Assembly (NCBI GenBank): GCA_964016885.1
Contig: OZ024748.1
Span: forward strand, 41,664,001 to 41,728,000
Direction of reading: 5' to 3'
Length of the DNA: 64,000 bases
Origin: Eledone cirrhosa
Taxonomy: Eukaryota
Shown one piece after another: positions 2,504-41,180 of the stretch. Within the stretch, counting starts at the first letter, position 1. Each line of letters begins with the position of its first letter. The notes below the pieces were generated by a model. It worked only from the letters and a program-made list of their open reading frames with translations, did not search any database and was not told the origin of the DNA. A program made the translations under genes and the position numbers.

Positions 2504-2728
2504 ATTTCTTCTGATATTCATTGAGTAGATCAAAAAAACTGCGATGTGTCGATGAATCACTCATATTGACAAAGAACTTGCGATTGTCATCAGAAGTTAC
2601 ATTCTCCTCTTCTGTTTTATTAGCGTTGACACTGGCCGATTCTTTATAAATTGGGGTGACATCATTTAGGGCTGCTCGTTGGTGGATCATTAAATTGGTG
2701 TCAAGAATGACGTCACCAAACTCAATAC
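2504..2728 (-). CDS. REXO5: REXO5-like exon, last in window: (S)IEFGDVILDTNLMIHQ...FFDLLNEYQKK
   Basis: Donor AAAT|gtaagt at 2503. Acceptor ttccttttcgag|GT at 2729-2730, with an in-frame alternative tttccag at 2756-2757. Phase 1 joins the upstream exon to give KLKN-S-IEFGDVIL, which matches the sequence I recall after ExoIII in invertebrate REXO5. Confidence 0.85.
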
Positions 2729-2804
2729 CTCGAAAAGGAAGAGAATAAAACAATGCTGGAAACATCTCTTGATGAACACATATACAGGTTAATAAACTTT
2801 CAAG

Positions 2805-3275
2805 TATACAAGTAAACTGATATATAGGTAGACTGGTATATAGGTAGACTGGTATACAGGTAGGCTGGTATATAGGTAGACTGATATATAGGTAGACTGA
2901 TATATAGGTAGACTGGTATATAGGTAGACTGATATACAGGTAGACTGGTATATAGGTAGACTGGTATATAGGCAGACTGATATATAGGCAGACTGGTATA
3001 TAGGCAGACTGGTATATAGGTAGACTGGTATATAGGCAGACTGGTATATAGGCAGACTGGTATATAGGCAGACTGGTATATAGGTAGACTGGTATATAGG
3101 TAGACTAGTATATAGGTATGCTGGTATATAGGTATACTGGTATATAGGTAGACTAGTATATAGGTAGACTGGTATATAGGTAGACTGGTATATAGGTAGA
3201 CTGATATACAGGGAGACTGGTATATAGGTAGACTGATATACAGGTAGACTGGTATACAGGTAGACTGATATATAT
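2805..3275. repeat. 16-bp minisatellite (ACTGGTATATAGGTAG), left part
   Basis: Visible tandem copies; same unit resumes at 5329 after the LINE insertion. Confidence 0.95.
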
Positions 3276-5328
3276 AAATTTCTTTATTAGCCACAAGGGC
3301 ACAAAAGAAGGGGACAAATACAAATGGGGAGTTTACATACAGGTATATGAAAATAACACTATTAATACAATATCAAATAACAATTGAAATCCCCAATAGG
3401 GGGGATGTGTTACACACGGGTTGTACACACCCCGAAAAATTGAACAACCCTCATCTCCAGGAGCCCCAAGAGTGAGTACTCCCTTCCTCTCTTTCTCTTT
3501 TTCCTCAACCTACAGGCTTATATAGAGAGAAGGCCCAACCACTCGGGCCATCTTTGCCACATTCACCCACCTTTTAAAAAATTTGCTGGGGTACAGCACC
3601 TCTCTCTCCATCCTGATTCTTCTTCCAAAATGATATTTGAAAAAACGAATCAGTTGCTCGCCGGAGAGAAATGTGTCTAACCTCAGCCCCTTCAACCTCG
3701 TCCACCATATAACCTCTTTCACCATAGCCATAACACATAGAAAAACCGCCTCTCCCTCATTTTTGAAGGAGGGTGGCGGTTTGATCATGACAATGGACTC
3801 GGTGGTCAACTGGATTGGTCCCACCCGCGATAATAGTCGTTCTACATAGCCCCACAGGTCGGTAACGCCTGGGCCGTGTACAAATGCGTGTGCGACGGTC
3901 TCCTCGTCGCTCACGCATCTCGGACAGATCTTTTTCGAAGGGTTCCTACCCAGGCGCCCGTGTCTGTAGAGCTTGTCTCGAACTGGTAGAGCTCCTCGGT
4001 AGCACTGCCAGGCCAGGTACTTTTGGAAGTTGTCCATTGGTCCCGGGCGGAAGGTCCTACCGAACAGACTGGCCAGTTCATCCTCCTCTACGCTTAGCAT
4101 TTCTCCGAGCATGTCGTCGCACTTGCTGCGGCCCAACCCTCTATAGAATGTCGAAGTGGAGTCTCCACTGATCGCCGGGTCCGTTTGCCAGAGGACTGTG
4201 AGCGCCTGAGCACATTCGATATGGCAGTCGGCCATTTTCCTCGGTCTTTGCTTGACCCAGGACTGCAGCTCGGTCAGCAAGACGTGTCGTGAGAAGGCTC
4301 GCCTCACGAACGGGACCCACACCGATTGTTTGGTGAGGAATACGTGGAGGTTCCACAGCCTGAGCGCGTGTTTGCGCATCGTCAGCCACGGCACCCCCAG
4401 CCCTCCGTTGGAAGGGTGTTGGCAGTAGATGGATCTTCTCACCAAAGGAGCCCGTTTCTTCCAAAGGAATTGGAAGAGCGCGCGCTCCATTTTGGTGAGC
4501 GTTTTGGCTGGACAAGGTACAACGGTCAAATGGTAGTAGATGACGGACGCTATAAAAGTGTTCGCCACCTCTGCTCGACCTTTCAAGGATAGTTTGCACT
4601 CGGCCCACTTCTGGGTGAGAGCAAACACCTTGGCCATCACCTCGTTCCAGTCTTCTCCACCTGGAGGTCCGGACCAAACCAGACTCCGAACAGCTTTACC
4701 GGTCCTTCCGTCCGACGACGTCATCGGAAATCATCGGTTTGCCTCTCCACGTTCCGAGTTGCAAACCGACGGATTTGTCCTGGTTCAGCTTTGCTCCTAT
4801 GAACCTTTCGTATTCCTCCAGTAAGGTCAGATCTCCCAAATTTGCGAGGTGCTCGACACCATTACTGTCACGTCATCGGCGTAGGCTGGCGCCGCATTTC
4901 GCAGTCCCGGTTCCAAAGGGATGCCCTGCAATAGCTCTAACTTCCGCAATAGTGGCTCGAGAGTCAGTACATACCAGTTCCTTTTCGGTCTTATTTCTAT
5001 CTATCACTAATTCTTTACTAAAACCTATCGAGTCTAATCTAACTGCCCTCTTGAGAGAGTACCACCATCTGTTGTTGACAATGGCCCCTGTCAAGTGCTG
5101 GTTAACTAAAGTGCTAATCCGTCTACTGTAGGCTTTGCATGTTGGTAACGACAAGCTCAGCTTCCAGTAGCCGGGTCCCTGTCTATGGGTTTTGTCAAGG
5201 TTGACTGAGCAGGTCACTAATTTGTGATCTGAATAGGCAACCATGAACATTTGTGGACAGCTTAACATGTCCCTATCATTCTTTCTAACTAGAACCCTAT
5301 CTAGGTACGATCTAGATGTTCCGCTACG
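3276..5328 (-). mobile_element. L1/Tx1-type non-LTR retrotransposon, 5'-truncated and internally deleted ORF2, inserted into the 16-bp minisatellite
   Basis: APE endonuclease C-terminal motifs (YLDRVLV, SDHKLV, GPGYWKL). RT segment YVLTLEPLLR...YADD (4872-4883). GGLGVP motif and zf-RVT-like WQCYRGALPV...CPRC..EETVAH. AATAAA at 3283-3288 (minus strand) near the 3' end. Confidence 0.9.
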
Positions 5329-6025
5329 ATATAGGTAGACTGATATATAGGTAGACTGGTATATAGGTAGACTGGTATATAGGTAGATTGATATATAGGT
5401 AGACTGATATACAGGTAGACTGGTATATAGGTAGACTGATATACAGGTAGACTGGTATATAGGTAGACTGGTATATAGGTAGACTGGTATATAGGTAGAC
5501 TGATATATAGGTAGACTGATATACAGGTAGACTGGTATATAGGTAGACTGATATACAGGTAGACTGGTATACAGGTAGACTGATATGTAGGTAAATTGGT
5601 ATACAGGTAGACATATATAGGAAGACTGGTATATAGGTAGACTGATATACAGGTAGACTGGTATATAGGTAGACTGATATGCAGGTAGACTGGTATATAG
5701 GTAGACTGGTATATAGGTAGACTGATATATAGGTAGACTGATATACAGGTAGACTGGTATATAGGTAGACTGGTATATAAGTAGACTGATATACAGGTAG
5801 ACTGGTATACAGGTAGACTGATATATAGGTAGACTGGTATACAGGTAGACTGATATGTAGGTAGATTGGTATACAGGTAGACATATATAGGAAGACTGGT
5901 ATATAGGTAGACTGATATACAGGTAGACTGGTATATAGGTAGATTGGTATACAGGTAGACTGGTATACAGGTAGACTGATATATAGGTAGACTGGTATAC
6001 AGGTAGACTAGTATATAGGTAATTG
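5329..6025. repeat. 16-bp minisatellite, right part
   Basis: Same unit as 2805-3275. Confidence 0.95.
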
Positions 6026-6035
6026 AATGTACAGC

Positions 6036-6565
6036 ATCAACACCACCACCACCACCAACAACACAACCACAACCACCACAACCACCACCAACACAACCAC
6101 CACCACCATCAACACAACCACCACCAGAATCACCACAACCACCACCACCACAACCAACACCACCAACAAAACCACCACCACCACCAACAACTACATCATC
6201 AGCAATAACACCACCACCACCAACAACAACTACACCATCAGCAATAACACCACCACCACCACCACCAGCAACACAACCACCACCAACACCACCAACAACA
6301 ACTACACCATCAGCAATAACACCACCACCACCACCAACAACAACTACACCATCAGCAATAACACCACCACCACCACCAACAACAACTACACCATCAGCAA
6401 TAACACCACCACCACCAACAACAACTACACCATCAGCAATAACACCACCACCACCAACAACAACTACACCATCAGCAATAACACCACCACCACCACCAAC
6501 AACAACAACAACTACACCATCAGCAATAACACCACTGCCACCAACACCCCCACCACCAGCAACAT
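6036..6565. repeat. (ACC/AAC)n trinucleotide tract with a ~33-39 bp higher-order unit (AACAACTACACCATCAGCAATAACACCACCACC)
   Basis: Visible; abuts the donor at 6572. Confidence 0.93.
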
Positions 6566-6572
6566 CACTTAC

Positions 6573-6661
6573 TGTTCTTCAGTTTTAGCTGCACCAATTG
6601 CAGACTGGCAGTTGCATCTTCTACTGAGTTGTGACCATTGTCTCCAGTTTGGATCTGTTTA
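6573..6661 (-). CDS. REXO5: REXO5-like exon with ExoIII motif: KQIQTGDNGHNSVEDATASLQLVQLKLKN
   Basis: Acceptor tttctgttttatttcatag|T and donor ACA|gtaagt; 89 nt, phase 2 to 1; GHxSxED is the DEDDh ExoIII motif. Confidence 0.95.
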
Positions 6662-6664
6662 CTA

Positions 6665-6830
6665 TGAAATAAAACAGAAATGAGACAGGGATAAAACAGA
6701 AATAGGATATTGATAAAACAGAAATAAGGCAGAGATAAAACAAATAAAATGGAGATAAAACTGGGATAAAGCAGGAATAAAACAGAAATAAAGCTGAGAT
6801 GAAACAGAAATAAAACAGAAATAGATGAAA
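6665..6830. repeat. Degenerate ~11-bp repeats (ATAAAACAGAA) that are copies of the exon's polypyrimidine tract (TTCTGTTTTAT on minus)
   Basis: Repeated motif contiguous with the acceptor at 6662. Confidence 0.7.
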
Positions 6831-6879: not shown

Positions 6880-7285
6880 ACTGAGTGTGGAGTGCTACTT
6901 TACTGAGTGTGGAGTGTTACAAGCTTCACTCTATGTGGAGTGCTACTTCACTGAGTGTGGAGTGTTACAAGCTTCACTCTATGTGGAGTACTACTTCACT
7001 GAGTGTGGAGTGTTACAAGCTTCACTCTATGTGGAGTGCTACTTCAGTGAGTGTGGAGTGCTACTTAATGAGTGTGGAGTGTTACAAGCTTCACTGTATG
7101 TGCAGTGCTACTTTACCGAGTGTGGAGTGTTACAAGCTTCACTCTATGTGGAGTGCTACTTCAGTGAGTGTGGAGTGCTTCTTAATGAGTGTGGAGTGTT
7201 ACAAGCTTCACTGTATGTGCAGTGCTACTTTACCGAGTGTGGAGTGTTAGAAGCTTCACTCTATGTGGAGTGTTACTTCACTCCA
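6880..7285. repeat. 48-bp minisatellite (CTGAGTGTGGAGTGTTACAAGCTTCACTCTATGTGGAGTGCTACTTCA)
   Basis: About 7-8 visible copies with partial internal duplications. Confidence 0.93.
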
Positions 7286-7364: not shown

Positions 7365-10300
7365 ATGTGGTGATGGTGATGGTGGTGATGGTGATGATGG
7401 CGATGGTGGTGATGGTGGGGTTGGTGATGATGGTGATAGTGGTGGTGATGGTGATGATGGTGGTGGTGATGGTGGTGATGGTAATGATGGTGGTGATGGT
7501 GGTGGTGGTGAAGGTGTTCATGGTGGTGTTGATGGTGGTGGTGGTGTTGATGGTGGTGGTGATGGTGTTGATGGTGGCGGTGGTGATGGTGTTGATAATG
7601 ATGGTGGTGGTAGTGATGGTGGTGATGGTGTTGATGGTGGTGGTATTGATGGTGGTGGTGGTGATGGTGATGATGTTGATGGTGATGGTGGTGATGGTAG
7701 TGATGGTAGTGATGACAGTGATGGCAGTGATGGTAGTGATGACAGTGATGGTAGTGATGGCAGTGATGACAGTGATGGCAGTGATGGTAGTGATGACAGT
7801 GATGGTAGTGATGACAGTGATGACAGTGATGGTAGTGATGGCAGTGATGGTAGTGATGACAGTGATGACAGTGATGACAGTGATGGTAGTGATGGTAGTG
7901 ATGGCAGTGATGGTAGTGATGGTAGTGATGACAGTGATGGTAGTGATGGCAGTGATGACAGTGATGGCAGTGATGGCAGTGATGGCAGTGATGTTAGTGA
8001 TGGTAGTGATGACAGTGATGACAGTGATGGCAGTGATGGCAGTGATGACAGTGATGGTAGTGATGGCAGTGATGACAGTGATGATAGTGATGGCTGTGAT
8101 GACAGTGATGGTAGTGATGACAGTGAGGGTAGTGATGAGTGATGGCAGTGATGGTAGTGATGACAGTGATGGTAGTGATGAGTGATGACAGTGATGGTAG
8201 TGATGACAGTGATGACAGTGATGGTAGTGATGGCAGTGATGACAGTGATGGTAGTGATGACAGTGATGGTAGTGATGGCAGTGATGGTAGTGAAGACAGT
8301 GATGGCAGTGATGACAGTGATGACAGTGATGGTAGTGATGGCAGTGATGACAGTGATGGTAGTGATGACAGTGATGGTAGTGATGGCAGTGACGACAGTG
8401 ATGGCAGTGATGACAGTGATGGTAGTGATGGCAGTGATGGTAGTGATGACAGTGATGGTAGTGATGACAGTGATGGTAGTGATGACAGTGATGGTAGTGA
8501 TGACTGATGACAGTGATGGTAGTGATGGCAGTGATGGTAGTGATGACAGTGATGGTAGTGATGACAGTGATGGTAGTGATGACAGTGATGGCAGTGATGG
8601 TAGTGATGGCAGTGATGGTAGTGATGGTAGTGATGGTAGTGATGGCAGTGATGGTAGTGATGACAGTGATGGCAGTGATGGTAGTGATGGTAGTGATGAC
8701 AGTGATGGTAGTGATGACAGTGATGGTAGTGATGGTAGTGATGGTAGTGATGACAGTGATGGTAGTGATGACAGTGATGGTAGTGATGGCAGTGATGGTA
8801 GTGATGACAGTGATGGCAGTGATGGCAGTGATGGCAGTGATGACAGTGATGACAGTGATGGTAGTGATGACAGTGATGGTAGTGATGACAGTGATGGTAG
8901 TGATGACAGTGATGGTAGTGATGGTAGTGATGACAGTGATGGTAGTGATGACAGTGATGGTAGTGATGGTAGTGATGACAGTGATGGTAGTGATGGTAGT
9001 GATGACAGTGATGGTAGTGATGGTAGTGATGGCAGTGATGACAGTGATGGTAGTGATGGCAGTGATGGTAGTGATGACAGTGATGGTAGTGATGGCAGTG
9101 ATGACAGTGATGGTAGTGATGGCAGTGATGGTAGTGATGACAGTGATGGTAGTGATGACAGTGATGGTAGTGATGGCAGTGATGACAGTGATGGTAGTGA
9201 TGACAGTGATGGTAGTGATAAGAGTGATGGTAGTGATGAGAGTGATGGTAGTAATGGCAGTGATGGTAGTGATGGCAGTGATGGCAGTGATGGTAGTGAT
9301 GGTAGTGATGACAGTGATGGTAGTGATGGCAGTGATGGTAGTGATGACAGTGATGGTAGTGATGGTAGTGATGACAGTGATGGTAGTGATGGCAGTGATG
9401 GTAGTGATGGTAGTGATGACAGTGATGGTAGTGATGGCAGTGATAGTAGTGATGACAGTGATGGTAGTGATGACAGTGATGGTAGTGATGGCAGTGATGG
9501 TAGTGATGGTAGTGATGGTAGTGATGACAGTGATGGCAGTGATGGTAGAGATGACAGTGATGATAGTGATGGCAGTGATGGTAGTGATGACAGTGATGGT
9601 AGTGATGGCAGTGATGGTAGTGATGGCAGTGATGGTAGTGATGGTAGTGATGACAGTGATGACAGTGATGGTAGTGATGACAGTGATGGTAGTGATGGTA
9701 GTGATGGTAGTGATGGTAGTGATGGCAGTGATGGGAGTGATGACAGTGATGGCAGTGATGGTAGTGATGACAGTGATGGTAGTGATGGTAGTGATGGCAG
9801 TGATGGGAGTGATGGGAGTGATGACAGTGATGGCAGTGATGGTAGTGATGGTAGTGATGGCAGTGGTGACAGTGATGGTAGTGATGGCAGTGATGGGAGT
9901 GATGACAGTGATGGTAGTGATGGCAGTGATGGTAGTGATGGTAGTGATGGTAGTGATGGCAGTGATGGTAGTGATGGTAGTGATGGCAGTGATGGTAGTG
10001 ATGGTAGTGATGGCAGTGATGGTAGTGATGGCAGTGGTGACAGTGATGGTAGTGATGACAGTGATGGGAGTGATGACAGTGATGGTAGTGATGGTAGTGA
10101 TGGGAGTGATGACAGTGATGGTAGTGATGGTAGTGATGGTAGTGGTGACAGTGATGGTAGTGATGGCAGTGATGGGAGTGATGACAGTGATGGTAGTGAT
10201 GGTAGTGATGGTAGTGGTGACAGTGATGGTAGTGATGGCAGTGATGGCAGTGATGAGTGATGGTAGTGATGGTAGTGATGGTAGTGATGACAGTGATGAC

Positions 10301-13300
10301 AGTGATGGTAGTGATGGTAGTGATGGCAGTGATGGTAGTGATGGCAGTGATGGTAGTGATGGTAGTGATGACAGTGATGACAGTGATGGTAGTGATGGCA
10401 GTGGTGACAGTGATGGTAGTGATGACAGTGATGGTAGTGATGGCAGTGATGGTAGTGATGACAGTGATGGTAGTGATGGTAGTGATGACAGTGATGGTAG
10501 TGATGGTAGTGATGACAGTGATGGTAGTGATGACAGTGATGGTAGTGATGACAGTGGTGACAGTGATGGTAGTGATGACAGTGATGACAGTGATGGCAGT
10601 GATGGTAGTGATGGTAGTGATGACAGTGATGGTAGTGATGGTAGTGATGGCAGTGATGGCAGTGATGGTAGTGATGGTAGTGATGGCAGTGATGGTAGTG
10701 ATGGCAGTGATGGTAGTGATGGCAGTGATGGCAGTGGTGACAGTGGTGACAGTGATGGTAGTGATGGTAGTGATGGTAGTGATGGTAGTGATGACAGTGA
10801 TGGTAGTGATGACAGTGATGGTAGTGATGGTAGTGATGACAGTGATGGTAGTGATGGTAGTGATGACAGTGATGGTAGTGATGACAGTGATGGCAGTGAT
10901 GGTAGTGATGGTAGTGATGGCAGTGATGGTAGTGATGGTAGTGATGGCAGTGATGGTAGTGATGACAGTGATGGTAGTGATGACAGTGATGGTAGTGATG
11001 GCAGTGATGGTAGTGATGGTAGTGATGACAGTGATGGTAGTGATGACAGTGATGGCAGTGATGGCAGTGATGGTAGTGATGGCAGTGATGGTAGTGATGG
11101 TAGTGATGAGTGATGGCAGTGATGGCAGTGATGGTAGTGATGGCAGTGATGGCAGTGATGGTAGTGATGACAGTGGTGACAGTGATGGTAGTGATGGCAG
11201 TGATGGTAGTGATGGCAGTGATGGCAGTGATGACAGTGATGACAGTGATGGTAGTGATGGTAGTGATGGCAGTGGTGACAGTGATGGTAGTGATGGCAGT
11301 GATGGTAGTGATGGCAGTGATGGTAGTGATGGTAGTGATGGCAGTGATGGTAGTGATGACAGTGGTGACAGTGATGGTAGTGATGGTAGTGATGGTAGTG
11401 ATGACAGTGATGGTAGTGATGACAGTGATGACAGTGATGGTAGTGATGGCAGTGATGGTAGTGATGACAGTGATGGCAGTGATGGTAGTGATGGTAGTGA
11501 TGACAGTGGTGACAGTGATGGTAGTGATGGTAGTGATGGCAGTGATGGTAGTGATGACAGTGGTGACAGTGATGGTAGTGATGGTAGTGATGGTAGTGAT
11601 GACAGTGATGGTAGTGATGACAGTGATGACAGTGATGGTAGTGATGGTAGTGATGGTAGTGATGGCAGTGATGGTAGTGATGACAGTGATGGTAGTGATG
11701 GTAGTGATGACAGTGATGGTAGTGATGGCAGTGATGGTAGTGATGGTAGTGATGACAGTGATGGTAGTGATGGTAGTGATGGTAGTGATGGCAGTGATGG
11801 TAGTGATGACAGTGATGGTAGTGATGACAGTGATGGTAGTGATGACAGTGATGACAGTGATGGCAGTGATGGTAGTGATGGCAGTGATGGCAGTGATGGT
11901 AGTGATGGTAGTTATGGTAGTGATGGCAGTGATGGTAGTGATGACAGTGATGGTAGTGATGGTAGTGATGACAGTGATGGCAGTGATGGTAGTGATGGTA
12001 GTGATGACAGTGATGGTAGTGATGGCAGTGATGGTAGTGATGGTAGTGATGACAGTGATGGTAGTGATGGCAGTGATGAGTGATGGTAGTGATGGCAGTG
12101 ATGGCAGTGATGACAGTGATGACAGTGATGGTAGTGATGGTAGTGATGACAGTGATGGCAGTGATGACAGTGATGGCAGTGATGGTAGTGATGGCAGTGA
12201 TGGTAGTGATGGTAGTGATGACAGTGATGACAGTGATGACAGTGATGGCAGTGATGGTAGTGATGGTAGTGATGGTAGTGATGGCAGTGATGGTAGTGAT
12301 GGTAGTGATGGTAGTGATGACAGTGATGGTAGTGATGACAGTGATGACAGTGATGGTAGTGATGGCAGTGATGGTAGTGATGGCAGTGATCGTAGTGATG
12401 GTAGTGATGGTAGTGATGACAGTGGTGACAGTGGTGACAGTGATGGTAGTGATGACAGTGATGGTAGTGATGACAGTGGTGACAGTGATGGTAGTGATGA
12501 CAGTGGTGACAGTGATGGCAGTGATGGTAGTGATGGTAGTGATGACAGTGATGGCAGTGATGACAGTGATGGTAGTGATGACAGTGGTGACAGTGATGGC
12601 AGTGATGGTAGTGATGGTAGTGATGACAGTGATGGCAGTGATGACAGTGGTGACAGTGATGGCAGTGATGGTAGTGATGGTAGTGATGACAGTGATGGCA
12701 GTGATGGTAGTGATGACAGTGATGGCAGTGATGGCAGTGATGGCAGTGATGACAGTGATGGCAGTGATGGCAGTGATGGCAGTGATGACAGTGATGGCAG
12801 TGATGACAGTGATGACAGTGATGGTAGTGATGACAGTGATGACAGTGATGACAGTGATGACAGTGATGACAGTGATGGCAGTGATGACAGTGATGGCAGT
12901 GATGGCAGTGATGACAGTGATGACAGTGATGGTAGTGATGACAGTGGTGAGTGATGGTAGTGATGACAGTGATGGCAGTGATGGTAGTGATGACAGTGAT
13001 GGCAGTGATGGTAGTGATGACAGTGATGGTAGTGATGGTAGTGATGGCAGTGATGGTAGTGATGGCAGTGATGGTAGTGATGACAGTGATGGTAGTGATG
13101 GCAGTGATGGTAGTGATGACAGTGATGGTAGTGATGACAGTGATGGTAGTGATGACAGTGATGGTAGTGATGACAGTGATGGTAGTGATGACAGTGATGG
13201 TAGTGATGACAGTGGTGACAGTGATGGTAGTGATGACAGTGATGGCAGTGATGGTAGTGATGACAGTGATGGCAGTGATGGTAGTGATGACAGTGATGGT

Positions 13301-21368: not shown

Positions 21369-21416
21369 TTATGATGAATATAATTGCAACCGTTGAAGTG
21401 GTGAGGTGGAACTTAC

Positions 21417-27247: not shown

Positions 27248-27275
27248 AAATGTAAATTTTGAGAAAATGTAAATA

Positions 27276-28010: not shown

Positions 28011-28046
28011 GCTAAAGGGTTAAAGAATATGTAGAAGAAGACTGAC

Positions 28047-28185: not shown

Positions 28186-28270
28186 CTAGAAATATAGCAA
28201 AAAATAAACAGATATTAATGTGTCTGTGTGTAGATATGTAGGGGTGTATATATATATATCAATGCCTAAG

Positions 28271-31740: not shown

Positions 31741-31844
31741 TCTGTATGTATGTGAAGTGGATAATCTATTGAGATAAGTTTAAGTTTATTATTATTATTA
31801 TTCGTATCTCCAAATTTTCCGGTTTGCACGAGATTTGTACATAT

Positions 31845-31893
31845 TTATATATATATATATGTGTGTGTATGTATGTGACATGTATGGATGTAT

Positions 31894-31981
<88 letters not shown>

Positions 31982-31995
31982 ATGTATATGTGATG
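31845..31995. repeat. (TA)n/(TG)n microsatellite
   Basis: Visible. Confidence 0.95.
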
Positions 31996-32119
31996 TGAAT
32001 GTTAATATGTAAATGTGTGCGTATAGCCATATTTCCTTCTCATTTCCCACCCACCCTACCTCCTCCACGTTTGGTATACTTGCCCAACGCTGTACAATAA
32101 CCACTCTCTTGTGAATATA

Positions 32120-35100
32120 TTATCGAGCAGACAAGGGGTGGACAGAGGCTCCGTAAGCCGTAATGTAGGCAACCCATCTAGGAGAGCTACCACTCCGAAT
32201 AAATTGGTACGGGGTAGAGAAATCCTCTAAGTCCAATAAGACAACTTCCCTAGTGCTGGTGGCACAAATAAAAGCACCCAGTCCATGCTGTAAAGTGGTG
32301 CTGGTGTTAGGAAGGGCATCCAACCAGTATATATACTAGTGCCAAACACAATGAACACAACGAATTAAATTTGCAACAACTGTGTAAACAGCAATAACAC
32401 TAACCCTGTTAGGGCTGCGTGTGGTAGTGGGGTGGCTGGTGCGGCCATGTGCGAGAATCTCCCGACCGTCATCAAGCAATCGCACAAAAACAACTGCGTA
32501 AACAGCAATAACACTAACCATGTTAGGGCTGCGCAAGGTAGTGGGGTGGCCAGTGAGGCCATGTGTGAGAACTCCACGACCGTCATCAAGCAATCGCACA
32601 ACAGGAAAAAGAACAAGACGTCGCATCTCAGAGTTTCCACACTTAATGTTGGCACTCTAACAGGTAGTTCTGGTGAGATAGCAGAGATGCTGGAGAGACG
32701 GTATGTGGATGTGTGCTGTGTGCAATAAGTGAGATGGAGAGGTGCCTCTGTGAGACTAATCGCAGGCAAACATTGTAGTTATCAGCTTTTCTGGGTGGGT
32801 AATGATGATGGGTTAGGTGGGGGTGAGCATATTACTGGCTGAGAGATGGATCAATAAGACAATAGAGGTAGTTAGAGTCAGTGATAGAATAATTAAACTT
32901 AGATTAGTTGTAGGCAAGAGACTACTGACAATCATCTCTGCCTATGTTCCCCAGGCAGGCCTAGGTAAAGAAGAGAAAGACTGCTTTTATGAGCAACTTT
33001 TACAAATAGCCTCAATGACAGAGACATCGTTATGCTAGCAAGGGACTTCAATCGTCATGTTGGACAGCTCCAGGATGGTTACACTGGGGTACATGGTGGG
33101 CACGGTTACGGCTCAAGAAATGAAGGAGTGAGGCTTCATGAATTTTGTGATGCAAATGTACTAACCATTTGCAACACTAACTTCCAGAAGCCTACCAACC
33201 ACCTAATAACCTACAAATCAGGCTAGCACATAAGCCAGATTGACTTCCTGCTAGTTAGACAGCGAGACAGACAGATGGTGTCAAATACTAAGGCATACTC
33301 TGGGAAAAAATGTACCTCACAGCATAGGTTAGTCATTAGTGATATCTCAGTAAGCAAGAGATGGAATGAGACATACAGGAAGGTGTGGAAAAGAAAGGTC
33401 TGGAAGCTAAAAGACCTTTCATTAAAATATAAATTTAGCAAAGCCCTTCAAGACGTGTATGACGAAAAAGAAGACGATTTAGAGTTGTATGACATAGATG
33501 ATAACTGGAATATCTTACGTGACAACTTACTGCAGGCTACTGAAGAAACTTGTGGTTGGGGCAGAGCTTCAACCAGACAGAGAGTGACCTGGTGGTGGAA
33601 CAGCACAGTAGATAGGGCCATTAGAGACAAAAGACTGGCATGGAAGGCTTGGAAAAATGGTGGGAGTAGGGAAGGATACACAGCCACTAAGAGAGAAGCT
33701 AGACGTCAGTTGTACTTAGCACGCAGGGAGGCTGAGAGTAGGAGATTTGCCAATGTTCTGCAACGGGAAGATCAGAGACGTGCGGTGTTCCACATTGCAA
33801 GGCAGTGTGTCAGTGCAAATCAGGATGTTGTTTGAGATAAGTGTGTCCGAAATAATGCTGGTGTACTTAGTGTCCCGAATGATCAAAAAAAGAAGACCTG
33901 GAAATGTCACTATGAGAGACCCTTGAATGTAGAGAATGAATGGGACAGAGAGGAATTACCCCCAGTAGACCCAACAGAGGGACCAGCTATTGAATTTGAT
34001 GAATATAGGGTACAAGAGGCAATTAAAGAAATGAAGAATGGTAAGGCTGCTGGACCGTCGGCGATAGTTGCTGAGATGCTGAAGGCATCAGGTGAAGTAA
34101 GCATTAAACTGGTTGCACGCATCATCTATCAGGCTTTATATGGCGGTGTCATACCCAAAGACTGGTGCAGCAGTATTCTCATAAATTGTTACAAAGGTAA
34201 AAGGGATGCTCTAGAGAGGAGCAATTATAGGGGCATAAAGCTGATGGATCAGGTTATAAAAGTGGCAGAGAGAATATTAGCGCAACTGATTAGAGAAAGG
34301 GTCAAATTAGATGAGATGCAGTTTGGTTTTGTGCCTGGGAAAAGTACAACAGATGCCCTCTTCATAGTGAGGCAACTACAAGAGAGGTTCTTAGAGAAGA
34401 ATAAGCCACTATACTTAGCTTTTGTTGACCTAGAGAAGGCCTTTGATATGGTACCCCAATCTGGAAACTAGGTGTAGAGGAATGGCTTGTGAGGACAGTG
34501 CAAGCTATGTACAGAGGTGCTGTCAGTAAAGTGAGAGTAGGTATGGAGTTTAGTGAGGAATTCCAGATACAAGTAGGAGTACACCAGGGTTCGATCCTCA
34601 GCCCGCTCTTGTTCATTATCGTCCTCCAAGCCATAACAGAGGAGTTTAAGACTGGCTGTCCATGGGAACTTCTCTATGCTGACGATCTGGTTCTTATAGC
34701 AGAATCAGTAGAGGAGCTGGAGAATAAATTCTGGCTATGGAAACAGCAGTTGGAATCAAGAGGACTGAGAGTGAACATAAGTAAGACAAAAGTGTTGATA
34801 AGTAGAAGATAATACTCCGATTCCATCAGGGAAATGGCCATGTTCAATATGTAAGAAAGGAACTGGCATAAATTCCATAAAATGTACGCAATGCAGATAT
34901 TGGGTACACAAGAGATGTAGTGGGATAGCAGGCAAACTAACAGGTAGGGAAAACTACGTATGCAGTAGATGTACAAGGAAAGTTGGCAGTAGTAATCACA
35001 GTGATAGACACATTTTTCCAATGCAGGTGGGTTCTATAGAAGTGGTTGATAGCTTCCGGTACCTAGGTGATCAAATTAGCATGGGAGGGGGGTGTTCCGA

Positions 35101-35643
35101 GGCCATAGTATCTAGAATAAGGACGGGTTGGAAGAAGTTTAGGGAGCTGCTTCCTTTGTTGACAAAGAAGGGTTTCTCCCTGCGTACGAAATGACAGTTA
35201 TATGATGCTTGTGTGAGATACATGATGCTGCATGGTAGTGAGACATGGGCAGCAACTGCAGAGGATATGCGACGGCTGGAGAGAAATGAAGCAAGTATGC
35301 TCCGTTGAATGTGCAATGTCAATGTGTGTGAACAACCAAGCATAGACGAGTTGAGAAAGAAACTGGGTATAAGAGGGATAAGTTGTGGTGTGCAAGAGAG
35401 AAGGCTGAGATGGTATGGACATGTGATGTGCATGGAAGATGACCGCTGGGTGAAGTGGAGGGAAGACGCAGTAGAGGTAGACCACGTAAAACATGGGCGG
35501 AGGTGGTGAGAGCAGACCTCAGATCGCTGAAACTCACCGCGGAGATGACGAAGGACCGTGACAAGTGGAGAGATGCTGTGCTGAATAGAACCCGTCCCAC
35601 CCTTGCAAGCAGGGAAAAGCAGAGATAAAATGATGATGATGAT
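32120..35643 (+). mobile_element. Near full-length decayed RTE LINE of a second subfamily
   Basis: STLNVGTL, DVCCVQ, DFNRHVG, SQHRL, QFGFVPGKSTTDA, LLYADD and RRLRWYGHV motifs; several stops and frameshifts; (GAT)n tail at ~35631-35643; 5' boundary approximate. Confidence 0.93.
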
Positions 35644-35808
35644 ATATATATATCAATGTCTATGTATATACACATACATATATGTTTACATATACATATA
35701 TACACACGTTTATAAACATATGTGTATATACACATACATATTTATACACAAACATGTTTATATATATACATACATATTTATACACACACATCATCATCAT
35801 ATATATAT

Positions 35809-35888
<80 letters not shown>

Positions 35889-35930
35889 AACGTTTATACA
35901 CACATATATACATATATATATATACATACA
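35644..35930. repeat. (TA)n/(CA)n microsatellite mix
   Basis: Visible. Confidence 0.9.
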
Positions 35931-36030
35931 ACATTAAAACAAGAAAATATAAGATTCAAAACAATTCTCAATAAAAAAAATCAAAAGAAAGACTTTTTAA
36001 ATCCAATCAAATCAATAGTTGCTATCTTAC

Positions 36031-36149
36031 CGAAAGAGATAATCAATGATTTTATGTTTTGGTTTTACCAGAGTATCATAGACAGTTTCCAGCTTCTCAT
36101 TAACTAAAGATACACGCGTTAACGAGTACACACCATCAGAGGTTTTACA
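36031..36149 (-). CDS. REXO5: REXO5-like exon: CKTSDGVYSLTRVSLVNEKLETVYDTLVKPKHKIIDYLFR
   Basis: Acceptor gtttcaatttcag|TGT and donor TCG|gtaaga; 119 nt, phase 0 to 2; LTRVS...YDTLVKP...DY is typical of REX1-family domains. Confidence 0.95.
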
Positions 36150-36193
36150 CTGAAATTGAAACAACAGATTTAGTTCTCTACATAGACATATTT

Positions 36194-36845
36194 ATCATCA
36201 TCATCATCATCATTTAACGTCTATCTTCCATGCTAGCATGGGTTTAGACGGGAATTGTCCCACGTGAGGCAAGATTGGTTGTCTTGCTCGTATAGGACTG
36301 TCTGGTGGGTTTTCTACGGCTGGATGCCCTTCCTAACACCAATCACGTTTACAGTGTGAACTGGGAGGTTTTTACCGTGTTACCTACACGGCCACATTAC
36401 AGCGTGGACTGTGTTTTTTTTGTCGTGACACCTACACGACCTCATTTATTTAGGACTGGATGTTGTGGTACCAACATAACTTTACAGAGAAAAGGGTGGT
36501 GTAGATAGGGGTGGGGGTAGTGGTAGTGGGATGGGGGTGTATTTTTGGTTAGGAGGTGCCTACTGACTGTAGGTTTCGCTTTGTACTTAGGCAAGGCGAG
36601 TCTTCTGTATGACTGTGTAGCGCCAAAGATCTCGGTCCAGTGACATTGTCTTGGAGAGGTATAACTGTGTAAGGTCGAAATTTATCAAATCGTCCCAAGT
36701 ATTTCTGGGTCTGCCTACTCCGTAGCTTCCATCTATTTTGATCACCCTGCACTTTTTTATACAGCTGTCGTCTTTCATGCACATCACGTGACCATACCAA
36801 CGTAGTCTTCTCTCGAGTAAACAGCATCTGATCCCCCTTATTGCT
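36194..36845 (-). mobile_element. 3' fragment of an RTE LINE, same subfamily as 28271-31740
   Basis: Closely similar to ~28271-28910; (GAT)n tail; KKCRVIKIDG...GRPR motif. Confidence 0.92.
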
Positions 36846-36940
36846 AGTTTCTCACTTATGCTTTGCCTAATTTTTATCTAAAGACATTTTTTCCAATTCC
36901 AACCCGCCCGTCCCCTCAATCTATCTTATTTCTCATTCTT

Positions 36941-36976
36941 TCTTCTGATGAAGGACTAGCGTCCGAAACGTTAAGA
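36941..36976 (+). ncRNA. Minimal type I hammerhead ribozyme motif in a Penelope-like pLTR fragment (~36860-37005)
   Basis: TCTT-CTGATGA-A-GGAC(TAGC)GTCC-GAAA-CG-TT-AAGA: core CUGANGA and GAAA, 4-bp helix II, palindromic ACGT helix III, TCTT/AAGA helix I. Confidence 0.65.
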
Positions 36977-37218
36977 CCCTCTTCCTGCTATATCAAGTGT
37001 TAACCTAATATATCCCTTCCATATACAGTACTAATTGTGTTGTTATTTGTTTACATACATATATATATGTGTGTATATATATACTTACAGACACACACAC
37101 ATATATATATAAAGAGAGAGATATATACACATTCATACATATATATATATATGTATATAAATATATATATACATATATATATACATACACATACACACAC
37201 ATATATACATTATATATA

Positions 37219-37613
37219 CGAGGGTAATCCCAAAAGTAAGGACTCCAAAGCGATGGGGACGCAGAGAGACAGTTTGTACGGCTGTTGGCAACACTGTTGT
37301 GATTGGTGCTTCCTTCACTCCCAAACAAGCATGCGCGCGCTTTGCTGGGATGCTCAGTCTTGGCTTGGCAGCCGTTGAGAATGGCTCCCCTTGAACGCTA
37401 CCGCAGCCAAGTGCGAATTTCACGCAGTTATTATATACGAGGGCAATCCCAAAAGTAAGGTCTCCTTCCGAGGAAAACATGTGTACAGATCGGCGGATCA
37501 CTCTGGATGCTCTCTGCACTTTGGTTCCTGAGGTTTCCCGAAGCACCATCCACAGGATTTTAACGGAGAAGTTGCAATATCGGAATTGGACCTTACTTTT
37601 GGGATTGCCCTCA
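37219..37613 (+). mobile_element. Mariner remnant with two left TIRs and one right TIR
   Basis: TA|CGAGGGTAATCCCAAAAGTAAGG at 37219, TA|CGAGGGCAATCCCAAAAGTAAGG at 37438, inverted copy at 37591-37613|TA; transposase fragments AKCEFHAVI and DRRITLDAL...VSRSTIHRILTEKLQYR. Confidence 0.88.
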
Positions 37614-37808
37614 TATATATACATATATATACACACACAATACACAGCTTGTACACATCTCAGTTTACCTGACAATACAACAGTACCACATCAACACAAA
37701 AGCCAAAAGCTAGCTGACAATGAAGAAGACCAAATTACATGTTATCTTCAGATGGTTCTAATTAGTTAACGAACCTATCAAATATCTGTCACTTTAATGA
37801 GCACTCAC

Positions 37809-37894
37809 CATTTCACAGTCCAGACCAAAAATGGGGCTTTTATCGGTAACTTTTTCATAGCTCTCTTTGGAAAAAATATAATCATTGTAAAAGC
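37809..37894 (-). CDS. REXO5: REXO5-like exon with ExoI motif: FYNDYIFSKESYEKVTDKSPIFGLDCEM
   Basis: Acceptor tctttcaatatttcag|GC and donor ATG|gtgagt; 86 nt, phase 1 to 0; SPxFGLDCEM is the REXO5 ExoI signature as I recall it. Confidence 0.96.
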
Positions 37895-37979
37895 CTGAAA
37901 TATTGAAAGATTGAAATACAATTTCTCAGAATTAAACAAATATACAAATATTTAAATAAAACAAATAAAGAAGAAACAA

Positions 37980-39685
37980 AAATATATAAAATATACTTGT
38001 TCTAAACTAAACCAAATATATATTATACATTATAAAATATATATTATATATTATAAAATATATATTATACATTATTATTATACATAACAAAATATATATA
38101 CATTGCAATATATATATTATATATTACAAAATATTATATTACAGGGTGTGGACGATATTTGTTCGCAATATTCACCTGGTAATTTTATGCAAATTTTTTT
38201 AACTTTTGTTGTCACTCTTGTCTTCAATAAAACAGTGACTATATTTCCATTATTTATTTTCAGAATAATTGATTATGAATAATTTTTAACCTCCAAATTT
38301 GTGGAAGAAACAGGGAATTCTTCTTGGAATCCGCGCCGGGAGGACAAATAAGGACCAGAAGATCAACTCCCAGAACAACAGGTGGCTCGCTGCCTCATCC
38401 AAAGACGTGCCCAGAGTCATGCAGACAAAGTTTCCAGCGACAACATTGGTCTTAGGTGTCGTCAGCAGTCAAGGTGATGTCATGCCACCTCACTTCTCCC
38501 TGAGGGCCTCAAGCTGAACACCGATGGCTACATCCGCGTTCTGAGTGAGGTAGTACAGCCCTGGATCGACCAGGTAGCTGCAGGTAGGCCGTATGTGTGG
38601 CAGCAAGACTCAGCGCCCTGCCATACCAGCTGAAAGACCCAAGCCTGGCTGTCAGAGAACTTCGTCGACCACACTTCACCTGACATCTGGCCTCTCAGCT
38701 CGCCTGACTGCAACCCCCTCGACTTCTTTGTGTGGGGCGCAGTGGAACGAGACACCAACAGATCTAGCTGCAATACGAAAGACGATCTGAAGGCCAGGAT
38801 CACAAGTGCCTTTAGGGGCCTAAGTCGGGGGACAGTGACGAAGGCCTGTAGCCGGTTCCGAGGCCGCCGTGAGGCTGTCATCAAAGCCAATGGCGGGTTT
38901 ATCGAGTGAGATCGAAAGAACAAGTCATGAAGACAAACTGACCCAAGTTTGATAAATATATCTCAGAAAATAAAACTACTGTGTTTTTTTTTTCCTAGAC
39001 AGTAATCTTGCGAAAAAATATCGTCTGCACCCTGTATACATATCAAAATATATATTATATATTACAAATCAAAATATATATTATACATTAGAAAATATAT
39101 ATATATATACATTACATATATCAAAATATATATTATATATTACTATATACATTACAATATATATATTATATATTACAAAATATTATATTATACATATCAA
39201 AATATATATTATATATTACAATATACATTACAATATATATATTATATATTACAAAATATTATATTAAAACATATCAAAATATATATTATATATTACAATA
39301 TACATTACAATATATATATTATATATTACAATATACATTACAATATATATATTATATATTACAAAATATTATATTATACATATCAAAATATATATTATAT
39401 ATTACAATATACATTACAATATATATATATACATTATAATATATATATTATATATTACAAAATATTATATTATACATATCAAAATATATATTATATATTA
39501 CAATATACATTACAATATATATACATTACAATATATATATTATATATTACAATATACATTACAATATATATATTATATATTACAATATACATTACAATAT
39601 ATATATTATATATTACAAAATACATTACAATATATATATTATATATTACAATATACATTACAATATATATATTATATATTACAAA
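37980..39685. repeat. AT-rich ~30-bp minisatellite (ATATATTATATATTACAATATACATTACA), interrupted by the maT element
   Basis: Visible on both sides of 38142-39034. Confidence 0.88.
38142..39034 (+). mobile_element. Internally deleted DD37D (maT) Tc1/mariner element
   Basis: TA|CAGGGTGTGGACGATATTTGTTCGCAA ... TTGCGAAAAAATATCGTCTGCACCCTG|TA TIRs; WQQD-x37-D (SPDCNPLD) counted by hand; internal TGA and a frameshift; HTH and first catalytic D deleted. Confidence 0.9.
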
Positions 39686-39985
39686 TAAAAGTTTATCTGA
39701 ACAATATTCCCCCTACACGGATATTGTTAATGTGTTCTCATTCAGCCAACAACAACAAGAAACATTTAAAGGATATTTCCCAGATAAAATAGGAATTAAC
39801 ATTGTGGGGATATCATTTTGGGGTCATTGCTTTACAACCAAACCCTGTCCCTGGTGCCAAGCCTTTCAGCTGACCCTTAAGACCGACACACCCCAATACC
39901 TATTCTAAACCAGATACACATGATACTATACACAAAAACAACTATGACAACAACAACAAGAACAACAAACACCTCAAATACATAC

Positions 39986-40144
39986 CCCACTTGCTTTTGA
40001 TTGGCAAGGGGTAGTTTTCTCTAGCCATTTGTAGAAGGTTTAACAGTAGTAGTGTACGTGGGAAGGCATCTAGTGTGTTTGGACTTACAGATGAAACCTT
40101 GTTCAGTATAGCCTTTTGAAACATATTTTTTTGGTGTTTTTTTG
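39986..40144 (-). CDS. REXO5: REXO5-like exon: KKHQKNMFQKAILNKVSSVSPNTLDAFPRTLLLLNLLQMARENYPLPIKSKW
   Basis: Acceptor ttttttctaattacag|CA and donor TGGG|gtatgt; 159 nt, phase 1 to 1; FPRTxLLL...QM..E.YPxP precedes the nuclease domain in invertebrate REXO5 as I recall it. Confidence 0.9.
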
Positions 40145-40207
40145 CTGTAATTAGAAAAAAAGAATTTCATTCAAAATATAATATAGAATATATAATATAA
40201 TTAAATC

Positions 40208-40236
<29 letters not shown>

Positions 40237-40238
<2 letters not shown>

Positions 40239-40440
40239 GTAGGATAAAGACCCCCTTTGGTCACGAATGACCATGGGATTTGCACCTAGAAAGTTCACCT
40301 GCAAGGCACAAGTTCAGGCAAGGTTGTTTGTGGAAGACCAGCAGTCACCCATACATACCAGTCACCCCTCTCAACGCCACCGATGTTGAGAAAGTGAAAG
40401 GTGATGACTGATACAGCTTGGCACCTGTGACGTCACAACA
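40237..40440 (-). mobile_element. SINE 3' portion, same family as 40815-41010
   Basis: Shares GATACAGCTTG.CACC.GTGACGTC with 40842-40866; sits next to (TA)n. Confidence 0.6.
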
Positions 40441-40457
40441 TTTATACATATATATTA

Positions 40458-40800
40458 TGGCACATGGCTTAGTGGTGAGAGCATTGGCCTTGCAATCGAA
40501 AGGTTGTGAGTTCAATTCTCAGACCGGATTATGTGTTGTTTCCTTGAGCAAGACACTTTATTTCACATAGCTCCAGTTTACTCAGCTGTAGAAATGAGAT
40601 GATAGGGACTGGGGTCCCTATCATTCCACTGTAAAGTGGTCGTGGAGGTGCCACGGCAAAAAAGCACCCAGCACTCACTGTAAATGAGGTTGGTGTTAGG
40701 AAGGGCATCCAGCTGTAGAAATCAAGCCAGAATCAGTTCCCGTCCCACCCTTGCAAGCAGGGAAAAGCGGACATAAAATGAAATGAAAATGAATGAAATG
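40458..40800 (+). mobile_element. tRNA-derived SINE with an RTE-derived 3' tail
   Basis: A box TGGCTTAGTGG, B box GAGTTCAATTC and core CCTTGAGCAAGACACTT; 40628-40740 matches the RTE 3' UTR at ~25705-25850 (reverse complement); end matches 35591-35630; (AAATG)n tail. Confidence 0.85.
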
Positions 40801-40814
40801 AATATACACTATAT

Positions 40815-41010
40815 ATGTTGTCCAAGGGAAAGGCAAAGGCTGATACAGCTTGACACCGGTGACGTCGCAACTGATTTCTACAGCAGAGTGAACTGGAGCA
40901 ACGTGAAATAAAGTGTCTTGCTCAAGGACACAACGCATCACCAGGTCCGAGAATCGAACTCACAACCTCCCGATTGCAAGCCCAATGTTCCAACCAATAA
41001 GCTCTGCCCG
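40815..41010 (-). mobile_element. tRNA-derived SINE head and core, inverted relative to 40458-40600
   Basis: Reverse complement shows GCTTATTGG, GAGTTCGATTCTC and GTGTCCTTGAGCAAGACACTTTATTTCAC. Confidence 0.85.
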
Positions 41011-41083
41011 TCTAACCCAGGACAATAGTAATGAAAGATTTAAAGTGGTAAAAATAAAGGTGAGAAGTATAAGTGTCACGTAC

Positions 41084-41180
41084 AGCCATACTTGAAGAAG
41101 TGAATGCTGTTGATTTGGACCTTGAAAAATTCACTTTCTGTACTAACTCCAAATTGGGCAGAACTTATTACTTCTGTAGC
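41084..41180 (-). CDS. REXO5: REXO5-like exon, most upstream in window: ATEVISSAQFGVSTESEFFKVQINSIHFFKYG
   Basis: Acceptor tttctcaaatcttcttccag|GCT and donor GCT|gtacgt; 97 nt open frame, phase 0 to 1, compatible with the next exon; little recognisable homology. Confidence 0.75.

What the first reader, a model, noticed from the sequence alone, without database searches (positions are those of the whole stretch)
2504..41180. Intact REXO5 exonuclease gene hidden in ~98% repeat, with its introns inflated by different local satellites
Seen: 8 phase-compatible exons with the DEDDh residues intact (LDCE, GHSLNFD, GHNSVED). Introns measure 0.9, 2.1, 1.7, 7.8, 6.5, 14.8 and 3.8 kb, plus >22.8 kb upstream and >2.5 kb downstream. 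Most introns carry their own unrelated array, and the arrays stop about 0-85 nt from the splice sites (donors 2503, 6572, 21416, 28046; acceptors 2729, 6662, 21518, 37895, 41181). Inference: local intron sequence was amplified in situ rather than filled by a genome-wide satellite. This resembles the satellite-filled giant introns of Drosophila Y-linked fertility genes; mammalian REXO5 is reported as testis-enriched.
Basis: partly seen in the sequence, partly recalled or inferred. Interest (0 to 1): 0.72.

Follow-up and report, generated by a model that had tools for sequence, protein, structure and literature searches.

The report
Stuttering introns in octopus Rexo5 gene
An ordinary octopus RNA-trimming gene has several introns filled with repeats that appear to have grown on the spot, one of them about fifty copies of the gene's own splice junction; this pattern is already known from bird dot chromosomes and lancelets, and is seen here in a new animal group.

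Summary
The gene is real. Eight minus-strand exons give 338 open codons, 91% identical and gap-free to Octopus vulgaris RNA exonuclease 5, residues 153-490 of 603. The species is another octopod. '~98% repeat' is wrong: 98.4% is non-coding, 73% tandem repeat and about 21% transposon. Arrays fill 5 of 9 introns; introns 1-4 are mostly transposon. Forty-five copies keep the AG, and using any of them gives a stop codon. This shows local origin for that array; for the others it is inferred, because no genome is held. The match is to avian 'sequence stuttering' and amphioxus 'mirages', not Drosophila Y-loop gigantism: complete introns here average 5.4 kb, normal for octopods. Unlike in birds, the coding sequence is AT-rich, G4-poor and transposon-rich. 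Splicing and length polymorphism are untested in this species. Verdict: new member of a known kind.

The parts
41084..41180 (-). Rexo5 exon 1 of 8 in window (97 nt)
39986..40144 (-). exon 2 (159 nt)
37809..37894 (-). exon 3 (86 nt), ends with the Exo I motif DCEM
36031..36149 (-). exon 4 (119 nt); an O. bimaculoides fragment (P0008) ends exactly at this exon's end
28047..28185 (-). exon 5 (139 nt), Exo II aspartate
21417..21517 (-). exon 6 (101 nt); its first 20 nt are part of the 40-bp repeat unit
6573..6661 (-). exon 7 (89 nt), Exo III H and D
2504..2728 (-). exon 8 (225 nt), GAG acceptor
21498..23605 (-). 40-bp 'mirage' / exon-stuttering array. Unit = last 20 nt of intron 5 (21537-21518) plus first 20 nt of exon 6 (21517-21498). 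51 upstream copies, 7 identical at 40/40, mean identity 92.5%; 45 keep AG, 44 keep YAG
1..2476 (.). 46-bp array (52 copies in window, runs off the window end), 26 nt from the exon 8 donor
2816..6021 (.). 16-bp array in two halves (2816-3274, 5329-6021) split by a LINE fragment (about 3275-5328; zf-RVT E 6e-06, just under the Pfam cut-off; 'Tx1/L1-like' is my recalled label)
6038..6535 (.). (CAC)n-derived 39-42-bp array, 36 nt from the exon 7 donor; resembles the donor-side flank
6669..6823 (-). 11/22-bp pyrimidine-tract repeat running to 6 nt from the exon 7 acceptor
6880..7282 (.). 48/117-bp array
7367..21369 (.). GTG/GAT microsatellite grading into a 13.7-kb 9-bp array (about 1500 units, three main variants, kilobase-scale internal duplications)
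24609..28011 (.). 72-bp array in two halves (24609-25603, 27279-28011) split by a 5'-truncated LINE (about 25604-27240; RVT_1 E 3.5e-28); 34 nt from the exon 5 donor
28186..36030 (.). intron 4: two LINE copies in opposite orientation (endonuclease, RVT_1, PHD; 'RTE' is my recalled label); no large array
36150..41083 (.). introns 1-3: LINE 3' end, mariner/Tc1-like remnants (label recalled, no Pfam hit), AT-rich low-complexity repeat 39037-39682, tRNA-derived SINE-like copies
41244..64000 (.). 67-71-bp array, more than 22.7 kb (about 330 copies, runs off the window end), 62 nt from the exon 1 acceptor; each unit looks like a weak acceptor on the transcript strand

Best explanation
A conserved, probably functional octopod Rexo5 gene (Rex1-clade DEDDh 3'-5' exoribonuclease; likely job: 3' trimming of stable RNAs, as for fly Rexo5 and yeast Rex1) lies in a region undergoing intron and exon 'sequence stuttering'. 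Step 1 (shown for the 40-bp array, inferred for the rest): a short local stretch is duplicated in tandem; in intron 5 the stretch straddled the acceptor of exon 6. Step 2 (inferred from internal structure): slippage and unequal exchange or gene conversion expand each seed independently, giving kilobase-scale sub-duplications. Step 3 (inferred from shared units on both sides): LINEs land in AT-rich spots and split two arrays; introns 1-4 grew mainly by transposons. Step 4 (inferred): selection on the mRNA keeps exons and true splice sites unchanged. Only the exon-proximal acceptor of the 52 gives a full frame, so the cell probably picks it by exon definition from the exon 6 donor and exon bases 21-101, and any decoy use is lost to nonsense-mediated decay. 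The arrays are most likely tolerated junk. They sit near splice sites because the introns were short before they expanded.
For: Exon 6 bases 1-20 hit only the adjacent intron 5: 29 hits of 20 nt or more, 40.1 bits, against a maximum of 24.3 in 20 shuffles; no other exon hits any of the 9 introns at that length. 51 copies, 7 identical at 40/40. The coded motif M[MF]HPY[VI]I or a variant occurs in 122 of 136 fetched proteins, so the exon is older than the repeat. The array consensus has drifted to a Ser codon (41 of 51 copies lack the Phe codon), while the true exon keeps Phe as in O. vulgaris, Argonauta and Sepia; Ser is absent at that position in all 122 motifs. All 45 AG-keeping decoys give a stop inside the extended exon, before the Exo III residues. 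The arrays share no 14-mers apart from split halves and microsatellite-like units. Exact internal duplications: 476 bp at 2685-bp offset (9-bp array), 978 bp at 3367 (67-bp array), 182 bp at 200 (40-bp array). Non-array, non-TE remainder is 140 nt in intron 7 and 194 nt in intron 6. The protein is 91% identical and gap-free to O. vulgaris. The O. vulgaris model has the DEDDh domain inserted in an AlkP fold (iPGM Z 14.9, rmsd 2.7, 174 aligned, model 118-603), the Rex1/Rexo5 hallmark. Same anatomy as chicken stuttering and amphioxus mirages.
Against: Only 1 of 9 tested arrays contains exon sequence. One more resembles its flank (low-complexity, weak control) and 7 of 9 show no seed in the neighbouring unique sequence. 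No genome is held, so the other units could be dispersed families. Orthologous introns could not be fetched, so 'short ancestral introns' rests on the residue budget, whose TE borders I set by hand. Intraspecies length variation, a defining feature of stuttering, is untested. The context differs from birds: CDS GC 0.38, GC3 0.40, 2 canonical G4 motifs in 64 kb, and about 21% TE-like sequence, whereas dot-chromosome euchromatin lacks interspersed repeats. The 20-nt exon hits (40.1 bits) fall below the 42.1-bit threshold of the chicken screen. About 265 residues lie outside the window.
Confidence: 0.8

Rival explanations
1. The non-exonic arrays (46, 16, 72, 67-71 and 9 bp) are dispersed satellite families or TE-borne repeats that inserted into these introns; only the 40-bp array is local.
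For: No seed found in the flanks for 7 of 9 arrays. The 9-bp and CAC arrays are microsatellite-like and share 14-mers. Simple repeats are 14.7% of the O. minor genome. Two arrays directly adjoin LINE fragments.
Against: No unit recurs in another intron of this 64-kb window. The same unit lies on both sides of each LINE, including an identical 72-bp unit, so the LINE came into the array. The 40-bp array shows that local seeding operates in this gene.
Confidence: 0.12
2. A germline gigantic-intron programme like Drosophila kl-3/kl-5, in which transcribed intronic satellites regulate testis expression of REXO5.
For: Satellite-filled introns exist here. Mammalian REXO5 is testis-specific. The upstream intron exceeds 22.8 kb and its end is not seen.
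Against: Complete introns are 0.9-14.8 kb, normal for octopods, against megabases. Units are locus-specific minisatellites. The protein has no RRM in Pfam and is of the fly/yeast rRNA-processing type. The orthologues sit on 80-Mb and 59-Mb contigs in O. vulgaris and O. sinensis; sex linkage is not tested.
Confidence: 0.03
3. The locus is a decaying copy, or the arrays are inflated by misassembly.
For: 45 AG-bearing decoys compete with one acceptor; the nearest matches the true site at 79 of 80 bases. A 978-bp exact duplication lies in the 67-bp array. The O. bimaculoides orthologue is annotated in two pieces split at intron 4.
Against: No stop, no gap and all catalytic residues in 338 codons; exons 4 and 5 are 100% identical in protein to O. 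vulgaris. Units vary in ordered patterns rather than being identical.
Confidence: 0.05

Closest known systems
Avian 'sequence stuttering' (intron and exon stuttering; Hron et al., PMC12954441; passages and whole Discussion read)
   Same: Separate local repeat blocks per intron, bounded by intact exons; occasional units that copy an exon edge plus its splice site (20-187 exon bases, 1-44 copies, spans 112-23,555 bp in chicken).
   Different: There: GC-rich, G4-prone, TE-free dot-chromosome euchromatin with proven length polymorphism. Here: an octopod, CDS GC 0.38, 2 G4 motifs, about 21% TE-like, 51 copies; polymorphism untested.
Amphioxus 'mirage' minisatellites (Adh3, globins BflGb6 and BflGb9; PMC3087553, passages read)
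   Same: BflGb6 repeats the 3' end of an intron plus the 5' part of the next exon, exactly as here; splice signals are kept in many copies; the boundary copy escapes homogenisation; splicing reported as normal.
   Different: BflGb6 has 3-6 units of 150-160 bp. Here 52 units of 40 bp, among multi-kilobase non-exonic arrays.
Human F7 intron 7 37-bp VNTR (PMC1557585, abstract only) and CBS 31-bp VNTR (PMC2630376, passages; its splicing effect is recalled)
   Same: Minisatellite whose end unit spans an exon-intron boundary and leaves silent pseudo-sites.
   Different: Those are donor-side, where the true site is transcribed first. Here 51 acceptor copies are transcribed before the true one.
Drosophila Y-loop genes kl-3 and kl-5 (PMC6508621, passages)
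   Same: Conserved exons separated by tandem-repeat introns.
   Different: Megabase introns, simple satellites, Y linkage and a spermatocyte programme. The first two are not met in the complete introns; the last two are untested.
Rex1/Rexo5/Sdn5 clade of DEDDh exoribonucleases (PMC12129344, passages)
   Same: Central DEDDh domain inserted in a discontinuous AlkP fold; DCEM, DL and IQ motifs.
   Different: No RRM pair, unlike vertebrate REXO5.

Membership tests
Rex1/Rexo5 clade | DEDDh residues and DCEM / DL / IQ motifs | tested here: met
   Present in the window's exons 3, 5 and 7; D263, E265, D347, H396, D401 invariant in 73 homologues
Rex1/Rexo5 clade | Central catalytic domain inside a discontinuous AlkP domain | tested here: met
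   Tested on the O. vulgaris orthologue P0001, not on the partial window protein: RNase_T at 262-408 of 603; model pLDDT 84; iPGM Z 14.9, rmsd 2.7, 174 aligned over 118-603
vertebrate REXO5/NEF-sp | Twin RRM domains | tested here: not met
   Pfam finds only RNase_T in P0001, P0006 and P0012
vertebrate REXO5/NEF-sp | Testis-specific expression | not testable with these tools
   No expression data obtained for this species
sequence stuttering (Hron et al.) | Intron repetitiveness as separate local blocks that leave exons intact | tested here: met
   5 of 9 introns have 43-100% TRF cover; units unshared
sequence stuttering (Hron et al.) | Occasional copying of an exon edge into the adjacent intron | tested here: met
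   1 of 8 exons; 29 hits of 20 nt or more, all proximal; 40.1 bits against a shuffled maximum of 24.3, though below the paper's own 42.1 threshold
sequence stuttering (Hron et al.) | Extensive intraspecies intron-length variation | not testable with these tools
   One assembly only; no reads could be laid
sequence stuttering (Hron et al.) | Associated context (not one of the paper's three main features): GC-rich, G4-rich, TE-free small chromosome | tested here: not met
   CDS GC 0.38, GC3 0.40, 2 G4 motifs; about 21% TE-like; chromosome of this window unknown
mirage minisatellite | Tandem unit spans an exon-intron boundary of the host gene | tested here: met
   20 nt intron + 20 nt exon 6, 51 copies
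mirage minisatellite | Many copies keep the splice signal | tested here: met
   45 of 51 keep AG, 44 keep YAG
mirage minisatellite | Normal splicing at the authentic site; length instability | not testable with these tools
   Junction inferred from colinearity with relatives' annotated proteins
Drosophila Y-loop intron gigantism | Megabase-sized introns | tested here: not met
   Seven complete introns 0.9-14.8 kb; the two flanking introns are not seen to their ends
Drosophila Y-loop intron gigantism | Simple satellites such as (AATAT)n and (AAGAC)n | tested here: not met
   Units of 9-72 bp, different in each intron
Drosophila Y-loop intron gigantism | Y linkage and spermatocyte-specific transcription | not testable with these tools
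   No genome, no expression data

The most novel reading that the evidence does not exclude
Octopod genomes have whole stuttering domains that arise without high GC or G4, and splicing acts as a one-way sieve on which arrays survive. Arrays persist only in the orientation that is pyrimidine-rich and free of strong donors on the transcript strand: 9 strong donor-like sites against 681 on the other strand, and 411 acceptor-like sites against 4, while TE-filled intron shows no such bias (29 vs 35; 90 vs 116). The 52-acceptor array could then tune Rexo5 output by copy number through decoy use and nonsense-mediated decay, and is a natural assay of 3' splice-site choice. Caveats: only 4 independent arrays carry the donor signal (4 of 4, one-sided p = 1/16), the two biases are one compositional feature, and a local pyrimidine-rich seed predicts the same.
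Probability: 0.2. Interest if true: 0.62.

Novelty: new member of a known kind. Interest (0 to 1): 0.38.

Why it matters
Sequence stuttering was described as avian and tied to GC-rich dot chromosomes (PMC12954441). A clear case in an AT-rich, transposon-rich octopod gene argues that GC content and G4 are not required, and links it to amphioxus mirages as one general process. Locally born minisatellites could be an under-counted part of cephalopod intron size and of broken annotations (the O. bimaculoides orthologue is in two pieces). The 40-bp array gives a testable case of one true acceptor chosen against 45 near-identical upstream ones. The interest is moderate: the phenomenon is in print, earlier notes of this scan report it in other invertebrates, and no function is shown.

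Tried and rejected
Genome-wide copy search: no genome held. Expression: no RNA holder listed (4 runs from 1 study, possibly the window's own source). Pfam on the 8 single exons found no exonuclease domain (too short; one sub-threshold ribosomal hit). A possible extra mini-exon near 24520 was rejected: the model is gap-free against relatives without it. Arrays as chains of complete introns or micro-exons were rejected: strong donors are absent on the transcript strand in 9 of 10 array blocks scored (the 2816-3274 half and the AT-rich repeat were not scored). A seed search in flanking unique sequence was negative for 7 of 9 arrays. A shared 'ACAGGT'-like motif among three arrays gave no shared 14-mers. 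ARAGORN found no tRNA gene in 36000-41300; Rfam there gave only sub-threshold hits on AT/AC repeats and one tRNA-like SINE head. Earlier scan notes: none for this genome or protein or for octopus word searches. Literature: searches for octopus/cephalopod with tandem repeats and introns, 'sequence stuttering' (4 papers, 3 listed, all avian) and 'mirage' (2 papers, both involving amphioxus) showed no cephalopod report; one search found nothing. Keyword passages of PMC9068888, PMC13652810, PMC10700109 and PMC6279123, and parts 1-2 of 3 of PMC13282606, do not describe it. The library lacks most subscription papers and I read no supplements, where octopus repeat tables could bear on this.

Full report
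The observation. The window holds eight minus-strand exons (41180-41084, 40144-39986, 37894-37809, 36149-36031, 28185-28047, 21517-21417, 6661-6573, 2728-2504). All donors are GT and all acceptors AG. Together they give 338 codons without a stop, against 25 and 31 stops in the other frames. The product is 308/338 identical and gap-free to Octopus vulgaris RNA exonuclease 5 residues 153-490, 83% to Argonauta and 57% to a cuttlefish-cluster protein. The O. vulgaris and O. sinensis proteins are nearly identical to each other and the O. bimaculoides fragment also differs from the window, so this is another octopod; I did not try to name it. About 265 residues lie outside the window.

What was overstated. 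The window is 98.4% non-coding, not 98% repeat. TRF covers 72.8%. A hand budget gives arrays 72%, transposon-like 21%, exon 1.6% and other 6% (TE borders set by me). Arrays dominate 5 of 9 introns. Introns 1, 3 and 4 have 3-6% TRF cover and hold LINE pieces (RVT_1, endonuclease and PHD hits), SINE-like copies and mariner-like remnants (family labels recalled). Eight of 16 splice sites lie 0-86 nt from an array; the other eight do not.

The protein. Catalytic D263, E265, D347, H396 and D401 are invariant in 73 aligned homologues (73 of the 136 proteins held) and present in the window. Most named top hits are called Rexo5, NEF-sp or SDN5-like. An AlphaFold model of the O. vulgaris orthologue (pLDDT 84) shows the nuclease domain inside an alkaline-phosphatase fold (iPGM Z 14.9, rmsd 2.7, 174 aligned). 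That is the mark of the Rex1/Rexo5/Sdn5 clade; vertebrate members add two RRMs, and fly Rexo5 does the rRNA processing of yeast Rex1 (PMC12129344, passages). Pfam finds no RRM. Mammalian REXO5 is testis-specific but its mouse knockout is fertile (PMC5558908, passages). A housekeeping role is the better inference.

The key new fact. The 40-bp array in intron 5 is built from the gene's own acceptor: the last 20 intron bases (21537-21518) plus the first 20 bases of exon 6 (21517-21498). There are 51 upstream copies, 7 identical at all 40 bases, mean identity 92.5%; 45 keep the AG. In an exon-versus-intron BLAST modelled on the chicken screen, only exon 6 against intron 5 gives hits of 20 nt or more (29 hits, 40.1 bits; shuffled maximum 24.3 in 20 replicates). 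The peptide coded by those bases is conserved in 122 of 136 fetched proteins, so the repeat came from the exon. Most copies have drifted away from the Phe codon (10 of 51 keep it), while the true exon keeps Phe as in relatives. The nearest decoy matches the true site at 79 of 80 bases, and all 45 AG-bearing decoys give a stop inside the lengthened exon. One acceptor of 46 is therefore productive.

The other arrays. They share no 14-mers except between split halves and among CAC/GTG microsatellite-like units, and none recurs in another intron. Kilobase-scale exact sub-duplications point to unequal exchange. The 16-bp and 72-bp arrays are each split by a LINE with the same unit on both sides. 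Removing arrays and TEs leaves 140 nt of intron 7, 194 nt of intron 6 and 1081 nt of intron 5. This explains why arrays lie near splice sites if the introns were once short (inference). Against this, no seed was found in the flanks for 7 of 9 arrays, and with no genome dispersal is untested.

Strand bias. On the transcript strand 7 of 10 array types are more than 50% pyrimidine. With a recalled generic consensus, strong donor-like sites number 9 on that strand and 681 on the other, and acceptor-like sites 411 and 4; TE-filled intron is unbiased (29 vs 35; 90 vs 116) (two array blocks not scored). Counted as independent arrays this is only 4 of 4 (one-sided p = 1/16), and 5 of the 8 true donors reach the threshold used. 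It is a lead, not a result.

Mechanism. Shown: an open reading frame over eight exons with canonical splice dinucleotides; the exon-derived unit; unproductive decoys; separate arrays. Inferred: local seeding of the other arrays; expansion by slippage and unequal exchange; later LINE insertion; choice of the exon-proximal acceptor by exon definition, with decay of mis-spliced RNA. Confidence 0.8. Rivals: dispersed satellites for the non-exonic arrays (0.12), decaying gene or misassembly (0.05), Y-loop-like germline programme (0.03). Splicing in this species is inferred from colinearity with annotated relatives.

Comparison with what is known. Chicken 'sequence stuttering' has the same anatomy: separate repeat blocks per intron, intact exons, and sometimes an exon edge with its splice site copied 1-44 times. 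Its authors tie it to GC-rich, TE-free dot chromosomes (PMC12954441, passages and Discussion; zebra finch data in two preprints, passages). Amphioxus 'mirages' include an acceptor-side case, BflGb6, with normal splicing (PMC3087553, passages). Human F7 (abstract) and CBS (passages) VNTRs are donor-side cases. This locus meets two of the three stuttering features, the third being untestable, but not the GC/G4 context: CDS GC 0.38, GC3 0.40, 2 G4 motifs. Drosophila Y-loop genes have megabase introns of simple satellite (PMC6508621, passages). The complete introns here average 5.4 kb, like O. minor's 5.4-kb mean, with a median of 3.8 kb against 2.5 kb in O. vulgaris.

Novelty and verdict. I found no cephalopod report in searches, within a library that lacks most subscription papers; no supplements were read. 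Unchecked notes from this scan describe the same thing in other invertebrates, which lowers novelty. New member of a known kind; interest 0.38. The boldest reading not excluded is a GC-independent stuttering domain filtered by splicing, with a tunable acceptor array (probability 0.2, interest 0.62).

Noticed in passing
window 23820-24110: A 291-bp near-perfect palindrome flanked by TA runs in intron 5 (RNA fold -186 kcal/mol, z -24). Probably a MITE; it would form a long double-stranded hairpin in the pre-mRNA, a possible ADAR editing substrate (inference).
   Followed up: partly
window 25604-27240, 28273-31760, 32369-35650, 36195-36877: Several LINE copies of related families (66-90% identical to each other) whose ORF carries a PHD finger after the reverse transcriptase domain. 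The 28273-31760 copy looks near full length but is broken into several frames.
   Followed up: partly
window 2729-2731: The exon 8 acceptor is GAG rather than YAG; the exon boundary is still supported by colinearity with relatives.
   Followed up: no
window 41244-64000: Each 67-71-bp unit reads on the transcript strand as a branch-like motif, a pyrimidine stretch and YAG, giving 288 acceptor-like sites upstream of the true exon 1 acceptor, though the unit does not match that acceptor.
   Followed up: partly
proteins P0008, P0010, P0011: The O. bimaculoides orthologue is annotated as two fragments split at intron 4, and an O. sinensis isoform begins with a Thr/Asn run that looks like a translated microsatellite. 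This hints that the locus is repeat-laden in relatives too.
   Followed up: no
window 40465-40522 and 40868-41002: Two oppositely oriented SINE-like copies (85% alike), one with a tRNA-like head (Rfam tRNA E 0.01), inside the 939-nt intron 1.
   Followed up: no
window 37202-37631: An element with inverted termini (48 bp, 88% complementary) and an internal copy of one end; MITE or deleted mariner-like (label recalled).
   Followed up: no
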